Source of the DNA: Promethearchaeota archaeon
Lineage (GTDB): Archaea; Asgardarchaeota; Hermodarchaeia; Hermodarchaeales; Hermodarchaeaceae
NCBI GenBank assembly: GCA_048939625.1
Contig: JBHLPH010000012.1
Location: 33,086-62,356, forward strand
Reading direction: 5' to 3'
DNA: 29,271 nucleotides
Shown: positions 2-20,934 of the stretch, one piece after another
Position numbering within the stretch: position 1 is the stretch's first letter
How the letters are laid out: each line of letters begins with the position of its first letter
Translations under genes and position numbers: made by a program
The notes under the pieces: generated by a model
Seen by the model: only the letters and a program-made list of their open reading frames with translations
Database searches by the model: none
What the model was told of the DNA's origin: nothing

Positions 2-418
2 TGGTTTCCAGTGCCATTACTAGCCTGGATAATCAATCCGACTCCATGGATTGGGATTATCCTCAGCATCGTCGTCTTTGTTGTTCCCATCCCTATCTGG
101 TGGAAAGGGATGAGGGATTCAGGTTCCGAATGCTATGAACCATCGAAGCAATCGCAGATGTTTGGAGGTATTTATAACCACATTCGTCACCCGCAAACAC
201 TCGGTGAAATTAGCTGGTTCATTGCCATTCCACTTTTTGTTAACTCCTTATTCCTGCTAATTGTAAGTCTTGTTTTTTTCCTCTTTTATATCCCAATTAT
301 GATTCATGTGGAAGAACAGGACCTGATTCGCCGGTTTGGTGATGCGTATCGAAAATATCAAAAACGTACGGGTGCCCTCTTCCCTAAATTAGGAAAATCC
401 AACAAACAAGAGTATTGA
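2..418 (+). CDS. Isoprenylcysteine carboxyl methyltransferase (ICMT/PEMT/STE14)-family membrane methyltransferase, 5'-truncated by window edge
   Basis: GIYNHIRHPQ motif and C-terminal EEQDLIRRFGDAYRKYQKRTGALFP. The frame is open from base 2 (WFPVP...) and aligns to the middle of the downstream paralogue (WFPIP...), so the true start lies outside the window. Confidence 0.85.
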   Translation, partial: WFPVPLLAWIINPTPWIGIILSIVVFVVPIPIWWKGMRDSGSECYEPSKQSQMFGGIYNHIRHPQTLGEISWFIAIPLFVNSLFLLIVSLVFFLFYIPIMIHVEEQDLIRRFGDAYRKYQKRTGALFPKLGKSNKQEY

Positions 419-1032
419 GCAAAAAAATGTCTATAATATCCTGGATGAATTTTCTGATTTTGAACCTTGTAACCGTATTGTGTTGGTGGCTTTATATTCG
501 AAGCGTCCAGCCATACACTCGCGCACAACGCTTTGGGGAATCAGCCTGGAAGACAGCCAAACGCGACCGTGCCCTTTCAGGTATCTTGATGAGTATTCTA
601 ACAGTAAACATGATTCTTTGGTTGTGGTTTCCAATTCCTGAGCTAGCATGGGTTGTTCACCCCAATTGGCTGATTAGCATTCTTATTGGAATCATCCTTG
701 CCATCATTTTCACTCCCATTTGGATTAAAGGTATCAAAGATGCGGGCAGAGAAACCATGGAACCGTCTCCCTCAACAGAATTGTACGGAGGAATTTATAA
801 TCACATTCGACATCCACAAGCTGTAGGAGAGATGCCCTGGTTTGTGATAATTCCCCTTTTTCTAAACTCCCTCTTTCTTGTGATTTGGGCAACCGTTATG
901 ATTCTAATTGTCAGTCCTGCCATCATCTATTTTGAGGAAAAAGATTTGATTACACGTTTTGGTGATAAATATCGAGAGTACCAACAAAGGACCGGTGCTA
1001 TATTTCCTAAACTCCGAAAGCGGAAAAAATAG
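415..1032 (+). CDS. ICMT/PEMT-family membrane methyltransferase (tandem paralogue)
   Basis: Multiple TM segments, GIYNHIRHPQ, EEKDLITRFGDKYREYQQRTGAIFP. TTG start overlaps the upstream stop (TTGA); alternative ATG at 427. Confidence 0.85.
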   Translation: MSKKMSIISWMNFLILNLVTVLCWWLYIRSVQPYTRAQRFGESAWKTAKRDRALSGILMSILTVNMILWLWFPIPELAWVVHPNWLISILIGIILAIIFTPIWIKGIKDAGRETMEPSPSTELYGGIYNHIRHPQAVGEMPWFVIIPLFLNSLFLVIWATVMILIVSPAIIYFEEKDLITRFGDKYREYQQRTGAIFPKLRKRKK

Positions 1033-1084: not shown

Positions 1085-2287
1085 ATGGTGGCTAGCTTGA
1101 GGGCTATAGTAAATGCAACTATTTGGTGTCCAATACAAGGTTTAATCAAGAATGGTTCCCTTCTTTTTGATCGAGGGAAAATTGTTGATGTAGGACAATC
1201 CATCAAGATTCCGAGTAAGACCAAAACGATTGATGTTGAGGGACAGTATGTTGTTCCAGGATTCATTGAAGCCCATGCCCATCATGGACTCTTTGACGGA
1301 ACTATCGGACCCATGGGTCAGGACGGCAACGAGATGACTGACCCCATTACTCCTGAGATGCGAGGAAAGGATGGTTTCCACCCCTTCGAATACTCGTTGA
1401 AAGAAATTATCAAGGGAGGAGTCACAACAGTAAATACAGGACCTGGGTCTGGGAATGTCATCTCTGGAGAGGCTTTTGTCTTCAAACCTTTACCTGAGGC
1501 AGTTGTCGAAGACATGATAATCTTATCGCCCTCAGGATTAAAGGTTGCACTCGGTGAAAATCCCAAACGGATACATGGTCTCGAAAACAAACGAATGCCA
1601 ATGACCCGAATGGGTATTGCTGCATTACTCCGCAGAACCTTCACAAACGGTCAAAACTACCTAGACGAATGGAAAGCCTTCGGTGCTAAAGCCAAGGATG
1701 CAAAGGAAAAAGGCGAAGTTATTCCCAAAGCCCCGAAACGTGATCTGGGTCTTGAAACTATCGCCAAAGTCCTGAAACGCGAAATACCCCTACATGCACA
1801 CGCTCATCGAGCCGATGATATTGCCACAATCATACGGATAGCTGAAGAGTTCAATCTCCGACTAGTCCTCATACACTGTACGGAAGGTCATAAAATCACA
1901 AAGTTACTTGCCAAAAGACAATACCCAGCCGTCATTGGACCGACTATCCTTTGGACCGGAAAACCAGAAGTCAAGGAAAAGGGATTCAAAACCGCAGTGA
2001 TCTTGAATGAAGCTGGCGTCAGAGTTTCCTTACAAACTGACTCATTGACTCCGATGCTCTATTTCCCCCTACTGCCAATGTACTGTGTGCGAGAGGGTAT
2101 GAGCCGAGAAGATGCTTTAACATGTGTCACCATAAATCCTGCTGAGATTCTTGGTCTACAGGATCGAATTGGTTCCTTTGAACCTGGAAAAGATGCTGAT
2201 ATTGTGGTATGGTCTGGTCATCCCTTCGACTTCTACAGTGAAGTTACAGAAGTTTATATCAATGGAAAGAAGATTCCTATCGAATAG
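1085..2287 (+). CDS. Metal-dependent amidohydrolase (imidazolonepropionase-like family)
   Basis: PGFIEAHAH metal motif, KVALGENPK, HAHRADDI, HCTEG, TINPAEILG...IGSFEPGKDADIVVW. Start moved from 959 to ATG 1085 to remove overlap with the upstream gene. Confidence 0.9.
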   Translation: MVASLRAIVNATIWCPIQGLIKNGSLLFDRGKIVDVGQSIKIPSKTKTIDVEGQYVVPGFIEAHAHHGLFDGTIGPMGQDGNEMTDPITPEMRGKDGFHPFEYSLKEIIKGGVTTVNTGPGSGNVISGEAFVFKPLPEAVVEDMIILSPSGLKVALGENPKRIHGLENKRMPMTRMGIAALLRRTFTNGQNYLDEWKAFGAKAKDAKEKGEVIPKAPKRDLGLETIAKVLKREIPLHAHAHRADDIATIIRIAEEFNLRLVLIHCTEGHKITKLLAKRQYPAVIGPTILWTGKPEVKEKGFKTAVILNEAGVRVSLQTDSLTPMLYFPLLPMYCVREGMSREDALTCVTINPAEILGLQDRIGSFEPGKDADIVVWSGHPFDFYSEVTEVYINGKKIPIE

Positions 2288-19796: not shown

Positions 19797-19812
19797 TGGT
19801 TTAAATATATTT
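19797..19812 (-). promoter_or_regulatory. TATA-like promoter of the ABC-2 operon
   Basis: Minus strand AAATATATTTAAA about 45 nt upstream of ATG 19757. Confidence 0.4.
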
Positions 19813-19926
19813 CTATAAGAAAAAACAAACAATTAACCTAATCTGAACTAGCCCTATCGCATTTGAACCCTGCGAAACTTTCCTTCTCAGACATTCTAAG
19901 ATCAATCCATATAACCGACTAACAAA

Positions 19927-19946
19927 AGATTCGCCAATCTCACTAT
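19927..19946. repeat. Direct repeat copy 1, imperfect palindrome AGATTCGCCAATCT-CACTAT
   Basis: 19/20 identical to 20624-20643. Confidence 0.8.
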
Positions 19947-20044
19947 CCACATGGCGACAAGGGCTAATTATCCAACTTATTCAATTCCACCGGATAAGCC
20001 TCACCGGCGGATTACCCAAGCTAGATTAAATATTTTTCTACTAA

Positions 20045-20473
20045 GCCCTCTGCCACGGATCAGGGGACTAAGAACCAAAAATGGAGGTAACGGACCTTCG
20101 AGGACACACTAAAAAATACAGTCCTGGACGGTTTACTTCATGTCGTAGCAGAGATGTACTTCCCTCCCCGCTACGGCGATAGGTGGCATTGAAGCGTTGC
20201 GAAGACCCGTTACCGAATGAGTCGTGAAGACTCTGTGTTGAGTGCACTCATTGTTCCTTTCACCAGTTAATGTCGGGTGAGCACAAGCATGATAGCTCGC
20301 CGCACTTCAGGACGTGCAACTGGAGCAGGGTTGCGTACACCCGCAACAGCACGTTCAGCGACTCCCATTTCTGCTAGTCGAGTTCGATTTCGGTTTGGGC
20401 CCATTTCCTGGATCCCTCCAATTGTGTTGTCAACCCGAAACCTTTGCAGGCCCCGAGTTGCGGGTGAGAGGGC
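20045..20473 (-). ncRNA. Candidate large (~429 nt) structured ncRNA, unknown family
   Basis: Ends pair (GCCCTCT/AGAGGGC). Nested helices include a 15-bp stem 20086-20100/20200-20214, an 11-bp stem 20144-20154/20165-20175 and an 8-bp stem 20386-20393/20435-20442. Most non-Watson-Crick positions are G-U on the minus strand. No credible CDS; AT-rich TATA-like sequence upstream. Confidence 0.65.
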
Positions 20474-20623
20474 GTTTTAATTAGTATAAAAGTCTTGCTA
20501 TTATAATAAATGATTGTTTATCCTTTTCTGGACTGCCCTTATCGCTTTGCACAACGCGATCATTCCCGCCTCGTCTAACCTTATGTCAGCCATTTCATCA
20601 ATCCAGATAATGATGGTGAAAAT

Positions 20624-20643
20624 AGATTCGCGAATCTCACTAT
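20624..20643. repeat. Direct repeat copy 2, perfect 14-bp palindrome AGATTCGCGAATCT-CACTAT
   Basis: 19/20 identical to 19927-19946. Confidence 0.8.
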
Positions 20644-20832
20644 TGACTCAACGAATATGCGAGTGTACCCTTTTTGAATAGAATCATTGAATACACCTCA
20701 GCACGGGATTGAAAACAGCGGATTAAAAATGTTACTGGCGGCTTTTTATCCCCTTGGATAAACCCTTCAATTTCTTAACATCATAGGGGGCGTCTAGTCA
20801 AAACTTTAATTCAACGAACCGGAGGTCGCATA

Positions 20833-20934
20833 ATGGGTGAATCCCGAGATAAAGATCACGAAAATTGGGTAGATGTGTTACCAGAGAAATCAAAGAAGAA
20901 AAAACCAAAGAAGAAGACCAGTAAACGATTATAA
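20833..20934 (+). CDS. Putative 33-aa Lys-rich small protein
   Basis: MGESRDKDHENWVDVLPEKSKKKKPKKKTSKRL*; SD GGAGGT at 20821-20826; TTTAAT at about 20805-20810. Too short for the ORF track. Confidence 0.5.
   Translation: MGESRDKDHENWVDVLPEKSKKKKPKKKTSKRL

What the first reader, a model, noticed from the sequence alone, without database searches (positions are those of the whole stretch)
20045..20473. Large (~429 nt) unannotated structured RNA candidate with a closed terminal stem and possible pseudoknot
Seen in sequence: a GC-richer block in a 1.2-kb gene-poor gap. Its ends pair (GCCCTCT 20045-20051 / AGAGGGC 20467-20473, extending inward through CAC/GTG and GGGG/CCCC). Mutually compatible helices include a 15-bp stem 20086-20100/20200-20214 enclosing a junction (20101-20105/20121-20125; 20135-20140/20190-20195; 11 bp 20144-20154/20165-20175). 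Others are 20216-20222/20246-20252; 20276-20282/20295-20301; 20312-20317/20349-20354 enclosing 20330-20335/20342-20347; 20359-20363/20376-20380; and 8 bp 20386-20393/20435-20442. A TGGAG in the loop of that last domain (20416-20420) can pair with CTCCA near the 3' end (20082-20086), giving a long-range pseudoknot. Most mismatches become G-U on the minus strand, although one helix favours plus. A minus-strand TTTATTATAA lies about 30 nt upstream. Inference: an independently transcribed RNA of ribozyme or RNP-scaffold size. I could not find the diagnostic motifs of RNase P, SRP, tmRNA or group I/II introns, so it may be a new class.
Basis: partly seen in the sequence, partly recalled or inferred. 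Interest (0 to 1): 0.85.

Follow-up and report, generated by a model that had tools for sequence, protein, structure and literature searches.

The report
Asgard microprotein gene with folded tail
The supposed 429-base non-coding RNA is really a tiny protein-coding gene (45 residues) followed by a conserved, folded 130-base RNA tail; both belong to an uncatalogued family found so far only in one group of Asgard archaea, and what they do is still unknown.

Summary
All listed helices exist as complementary sequence, and the minus strand folds better than shuffles (z -3.2). But this is not one large ncRNA. The peptide belongs to a family without a Pfam match, with up to 7 copies per genome in 18/19 genomes of this Hermodarchaeota family and none in 381 other Asgard genomes; silent sites are saturated. 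Only the 3' domain and the 5' hairpin covary. Helices inside the ORF, the terminal stem and the pseudoknot are not supported by orthologues. No Rfam match; RNase P lies elsewhere. This copy sits between two duplicated control blocks of an ABC-2 exporter operon, is broken in two relatives and missing in most. Paralogous tails can pair with the start codons of a regulator family (suggestive only); this copy's tail has no target above chance. This scan already noted the family on other DNA.

The parts
20485..20499 (-). TATA box (TTTTATA, 20491-20485) with a purine-rich BRE-like stretch upstream; start of transcription inferred near 20461-20465
   Evidence: invariant in 5/5 orthologues; same box in the same register in the paralogous ABC control block; distance to the start site from general archaeal promoter knowledge
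20431..20460 (-).
   Evidence: fold; 8 consensus pairs, 5 with changes on both sides, in 15 copies
20415..20419 (-).
   Evidence: TGGAGG invariant in 15/15 type A/A' copies; first base 15 nt before the ATG, inside the genome-wide GGAGG peak at -12 to -16
20267..20404 (-). 45-aa basic microprotein, family motif ERAxxG[C/A]xNP, usually ending [S/T]R[R/H]-stop; subfamily A'
20210..20264 (-). second GGTGA + ATG and a 13-codon mini-ORF whose stop overlaps the base of the 3' domain; start site conserved, product poorly conserved
   Evidence: frame kept with a 6-nt indel in L140; early stop in L039; ATG lost in L034
20086..20214 (-). conserved three-helix 3' RNA domain: outer helix 20200-14/20086-100, hairpin 20165-75/20144-54, helix 20121-25/20101-05
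   Evidence: covariation in 5 and 13 sequences, 0/500 shuffles reach the covariation score; fewer broken pairs than scattered substitutions give; a model built on A' finds type A tails it was not built from
20181..20194 (-). conserved C-rich strand, mostly unpaired in the consensus fold, that reads like an anti-Shine-Dalgarno plus anti-AUG; anti-AUG intact in 4/5 orthologues, changed in this genome
   Evidence: alignment A11; no target above chance
20068..20085 (-). pyrimidine/U tract (U5 at 20081-20077), probable transcript end
   Evidence: follows the outer helix in the A', A, B and C copies; terminator role inferred
20480..20740 (.). duplicated ~260-nt control block, copy upstream of the peptide gene
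19800..20045 (.). original ~250-nt control block upstream of the ABC-2 exporter operon (starts 19760, minus strand), 697 nt from its duplicate

Best explanation
A small mRNA of about 390 nt (about 20463 to 20075, minus strand) makes a 45-aa basic microprotein and ends in a folded ~130-nt domain. A copy of a Hermodarchaeota peptide-plus-RNA cassette came to lie behind a duplicate of the control block of the neighbouring ABC-2 exporter operon, so peptide and exporter should be induced by the same signal, probably a stress or toxic compound (inferred from the neighbours). The 3' domain most likely works in cis as a compact protein-bound 3' end that sets stability and turnover of the message; the peptide, rich in Lys/Arg and predicted to be helical, most likely binds RNA or the ribosome. 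Shown here: ORF, family, selection, covariation, duplication, losses. Inferred: transcription, translation, transcript ends, every statement on function. The architecture alone I put at about 0.92; the figure below is for architecture plus the cis role.
For: ORF, SD and family. Coding selection: type A pair L082/L031 has 20 third-position differences against 1+1 (pS 0.56, pN 0.02); window vs L140 pS 0.43, pN 0.21. ORF folds like shuffles. 3' domain covaries and starts about 60 nt after the last stop codon in types A, A', B and C. No stand-alone copy of the A' domain in 19 family and 151 phylum genomes. Duplicated control blocks flank the cassette; loci without it have a single block.
Against: A mere end cap does not explain the conserved unpaired C-rich strand, or the invariant interior motifs of types B and C. 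A type B domain survives without its own ORF in G002 and G004, and the A' fold is largely kept in G003, where the ORF is frameshifted (1 broken pair against 7.5 expected; the frameshifts may be recent): both hint that the RNA has a job of its own.
Confidence: 0.55

Rival explanations
1. Dual-function RNA: the same transcript, or a processed 3' piece, also base-pairs with the translation starts of other mRNAs. For types B and C the target would be the ten-member family of double-HTH AsnC-type regulators, whose genes begin NTG-GAY-xxx-xTx-GAY-AAR and often lie next door.
For: B and C interiors carry near-invariant UUGUC and GGUCCA motifs complementary to those starts; AUC 0.83 and 0.86 against other starts, reached by 0/100 and 1/100 shuffles; this family ranks first of 25 paralogue families for both; B domain kept without its ORF; archaeal precedent sRNA154 (PMC12612679).
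Against: Found post hoc; B and C are related, not independent; in other genomes type A controls reach AUC 0.58-0.76 against 0.60-0.88 for B and C; GGUCC is paired inside B's own hairpin; the 13-nt best match is not kept in register in other genomes. This window's tail and type A show no enrichment (p 0.33, 0.29), and five A' seeds together do not beat column shuffles.
Confidence: 0.25
2. This particular copy is a decaying relic: the family is functional, but the A' duplicate is on its way out.
For: Three stops in G014, three 1-nt deletions in G003; absent from about a dozen orthologous loci; pN/pS about 0.5 against below 0.2 among close type A pairs; long branch; conserved Cys and anti-AUG changed here.
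Against: ORF intact and identical in four other assemblies or runs, intact in L140 and L202; third positions still change most (18 vs 10/9-10; 25 vs 10/12); all three helices intact.
Confidence: 0.15
3. Type I toxin-antitoxin-like mRNA held silent by pairing of its 3' end with the ribosome-binding site.
For: Multi-copy small ORFs with structured UTRs; consensus folding of A' pairs the AUG region with the 3' tract, with one compensated helix.
Against: Own tail pairs no better with own start region than with those of other copies (permutation p 0.43) or than shuffled tails (p 0.22); the peptide has only a ~7-residue apolar run and is basic; no antisense gene seen.
Confidence: 0.06
4. Leader peptide and attenuator controlling the downstream ABC exporter operon.
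For: Same strand, upstream of the operon; conserved Arg before the stop recalls arrest peptides (from memory).
Against: The operon keeps its own control block and is found without the cassette in most relatives; genes downstream of paralogues vary in kind and direction; no run of sensing codons; CGA is the commonest Arg codon here.
Confidence: 0.05
5. One reading: one 429-nt ribozyme or scaffold RNA with a closed terminal stem and a pseudoknot.
For: Whole-block z of -3.2; the 7-bp end stem is better than shuffles in this genome (p 0.012); a 5-bp version appears in the A' consensus.
Against: Coding selection; ORF helices not conserved; end stem not significant in three orthologues (p 0.16-0.38), and for two of them pairing with another copy's end is as good or better; arms probably outside the transcript.
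Confidence: 0.03

Closest known systems
Dual-function RNAs, archaeal example sRNA154 of Methanosarcina mazei (PMC12612679)
   Same: One short transcript with a small ORF and a non-coding part that could pair with ribosome-binding sites.
   Different: No sequence likeness tested or seen; no target shown for this copy; here an SD-led 45-aa ORF, a separate 130-nt folded domain and several paralogues per genome.
Small-protein-coding RNAs (spRNAs) of M. mazei (bioRxiv 10.1101/2025.10.28.685009)
   Same: Lineage-restricted small proteins on short archaeal transcripts, linked to stress.
   Different: Those come with cis-antisense RNAs and include a membrane peptide; this peptide looks soluble and basic, and no antisense partner was seen.
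Type I toxin mRNAs such as AapA1 and hok (own knowledge)
   Same: Small ORF between structured UTRs, repeated copies.
   Different: No transmembrane helix; 5'-3' sequestration not supported.
Archaeal RNase P (RF00373) and SRP (RF01857) RNAs
   Same: Similar size as first drawn.
   Different: No match; true RNase P on contig C62; canonical SRP in 4/5 relatives.

Membership tests
Small-protein gene | ORF with SD, kept in frame, under purifying selection | tested here: met
   (strong for the family, weaker for this copy)
Small-protein gene | translation shown | not testable with these tools
Dual-function RNA | a base-pairing region with a conserved target | tested here: inconclusive
   signal for paralogues B and C, weaker across genomes, none for this copy
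Dual-function RNA | RNA part under selection apart from the ORF | tested here: inconclusive
   fold kept where the ORF is broken or lost, but ORF loss may be recent
RNase P RNA (RF00373) | covariance-model match with P4 core | tested here: not met
   the genome's copy is at C62, 179.6 bits
Archaeal SRP RNA (RF01857) | covariance-model match | tested here: not met
   not found in G000 (88% complete), canonical in 4/5 relatives
Any Rfam family (ribozymes, riboswitches, tmRNA, introns, C/D and H/ACA guides) | match at gathering score or a meaningful E-value | tested here: not met
Type I toxin-antitoxin | hydrophobic membrane-spanning toxin | tested here: not met
   alignments A1 and A3: basic, apolar run of about 7 residues
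Type I toxin-antitoxin | conserved 5'-3' pairing over the SD | tested here: not met
Type I toxin-antitoxin | antisense antitoxin RNA | not testable with these tools
   needs stranded reads
Leader-peptide attenuator | fixed downstream operon that depends on the leader's promoter | tested here: not met
RiPP precursor | modifying enzymes kept beside the peptide gene | tested here: not met
   neighbours vary; the radical SAM gene 7 kb away scores best, below cut-off, with PA0069-type models
Known protein fold or family (Rho_N-like, HU arm, RMF considered from memory) | profile or structure match | tested here: inconclusive
   low-confidence model, pLDDT 65

The most novel reading that the evidence does not exclude
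The family is an Asgard dual-function RNA system in which each transcript makes a basic microprotein and its folded tail silences a whole paralogous family of transcription regulators by pairing with the conserved codons at their start; the window holds a re-targeted copy wired to an exporter's promoter.
Probability: 0.2. Interest if true: 0.7.

Novelty: new member of a known kind. Interest (0 to 1): 0.4.

Why it matters
I found no small-protein or small-RNA regulation described for Hermodarchaeota in the papers searched. An uncatalogued multi-copy peptide family, each gene coupled to a covarying RNA domain, is a concrete entry point. If the tails do target the start codons of a regulator family, it would be a family-wide antisense circuit in a eukaryote-related archaeon. 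The window's own copy is a peripheral, partly decaying member, and the scan has already noted the family elsewhere, which limits what this locus adds: subfamily A', promoter capture by duplication, and repeated loss.

Tried and rejected
Rfam on the window and on 20 related loci: nothing meaningful. Pfam, NCBIfam, PHROGs, PDB sequence search, ESM Atlas: no family. AlphaFold model low in confidence, three short helices; best structural Z 4.1, uninformative. Complex prediction of peptide with regulator: no verdict, not evidence either way. Terminal stem, SD pseudoknot and start-region/tail pairing tested and not supported. An inner pseudoknot between the C-rich strand and the hairpin loop looked compensated in four sequences but is lost in L202. 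Rare-codon sensing rejected. tRNA genes gave no usable TATA calibration. The bacterial promoter/terminator scan is not suited to archaea. Likeness to cobalamin, TPP, HDV and SRP motifs was recalled from memory and not borne out by cmscan. The paper search on the exporter type gave nothing specific.

Full report
Observation. The 12 helices are present as written. The block folds better than shuffles on the minus strand (z -3.15) and only weakly on plus (z -1.68). No Rfam family matches the window, the gap or related loci. The genome's RNase P RNA is on another contig. SRP RNA was not found in this 88%-complete genome but is canonical in four of five relatives. Relatives' record titles place the genome in Hermodarchaeota.

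What the block is. A DNA search of 101 genomes found clear homology only within the genus, centred on query positions 60-205. That stretch is a GGAGG site followed by an ATG at 20404 that opens a 45-aa ORF. A profile finds the peptide in 18 of 19 genomes of the family, 1-7 copies each and 6 in this genome, and in none of 381 other genomes of the phylum. The search of 1.84 billion representatives gave 24 hits, three of them repetitive junk. There is no Pfam, NCBIfam or PHROG family. Selection acts on the protein: two type A copies differ at 20 third positions but only 1+1 first and second positions.

What part is real RNA structure. Downstream, 20214-20086 forms three helices. In five orthologues 89% of cells pair and 9 of 35 pairs change on both sides; in 13 A and A' copies the outer helix is 94% paired with 7 of 13 pairs changing on both sides; no shuffle of 500 reaches either covariation score. 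A model built on the five A' tails also finds two type A tails it had not seen, and no stand-alone copy. Types A, B, C and D share the outer helix and the following pyrimidine tract; in A, A', B and C it starts about 60 nt after the last stop codon; several genus-2 copies have other, shorter tails.

Terminal stem and pseudoknot. The 7-bp end stem beats shuffles here (p 0.012) but not in three orthologues, and for two of them pairing with another copy's end is as good or better; a 5-bp version does appear in the five-sequence consensus, so it is not excluded. The TATA box invariant in all five orthologues begins at 20491; by the usual archaeal spacing transcription starts near 20461-20465, past the 5' arm, and the U tract at 20081-20077 precedes the 3' arm (inference). 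The pseudoknot pairs the SD with the pyrimidine tract; over 14 copies the start region pairs no better with its own tail than with others or with shuffles.

History of this copy. The cassette lies between two paralogous ~260-nt blocks 697 nt apart. One such block stands upstream of the ABC-2 exporter operon in nearly all orthologous loci; two blocks occur only where the cassette is present: this genome, L140, L202, G003 and G014. The ORF has three stops in G014 and three single-base deletions in G003. L202, with only 72% ABC identity, carries the cassette while G001 at 90% lacks it, which fits an old insertion lost repeatedly by recombination between the repeats (inference; no rooted test was run). 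The intact or near-intact A' peptides group together with 99/96 support on a tree with few columns. pN/pS against L140 is about 0.5, so selection is relaxed.

Mechanism. Most likely the unit is a co-induced microprotein message whose folded tail works in cis (0.55). The test is post hoc, weakens across genomes and does not extend to this window's tail, whose conserved anti-SD-like strand finds no target above chance. The peptide's function is inferred only from its charge and predicted helices.

Comparison and verdict. It works most like archaeal small-protein RNAs and possibly like sRNA154 (PMC12612679; bioRxiv 10.1101/2025.10.28.685009), but membership of the dual-function class is not shown. 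It fails the tests for RNase P, SRP, type I toxin, attenuator and RiPP precursor. Peptide and RNA families are uncatalogued in the libraries and papers searched; this scan noted them before on other DNA. New member of a known kind; interest 0.4.

Noticed in passing
window 20833-20934 (+): A 33-aa Lys-rich ORF with a GGAGG site, conserved in L176, L177 and L198; a second hidden gene in the 'gene-poor' gap.
   Followed up: partly
window 19800-20045 and 20480-20740: The duplicated ~260-nt block is conserved across Hermodarchaeota, C/U-rich on the plus strand, with a TATA-like box usable in either direction and one weak hairpin. It may be a long operator array or a divergent small RNA.
   Followed up: partly
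L036 about 1950-2220 (-) and L050 about 340-500 (+): A type B 3' domain kept without its own peptide ORF or promoter motif in G002 and G004.
   Followed up: partly
L080 2684-3600 (G000 C3): Type C copies are followed by a conserved 27-aa ORF ending apolar-RR-stop and, about 700 nt on, a 48-aa ORF containing CRNPK and ending FQRR: more peptides with the same C-terminal signature.
   Followed up: no
L077, L103, L076 downstream of the peptide stop: Tails of the second genus look like an H-type pseudoknot with compensatory changes followed by a hairpin and U tract (seen by eye).
   Followed up: no
L072, L080, L101, L071, L094 spacer and interior of type C tails: A purine-rich spacer segment and a C-rich interior segment change together, suggesting a long-range pseudoknot (seen by eye).
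   Followed up: no
G000 C53:79568, 85882, 87083, 89658; C61; C9; C45; C81: Ten paralogous ~320-aa double-HTH AsnC-type regulators, half starting with GTG or TTG, often beside the peptide genes.
   Followed up: partly
G000 C10:11531, C58:21013, C67:32209: The promoter motif of type A/B/E peptide genes (CTCCCATCGA) occurs at three further places, possible members of the same regulon.
   Followed up: no
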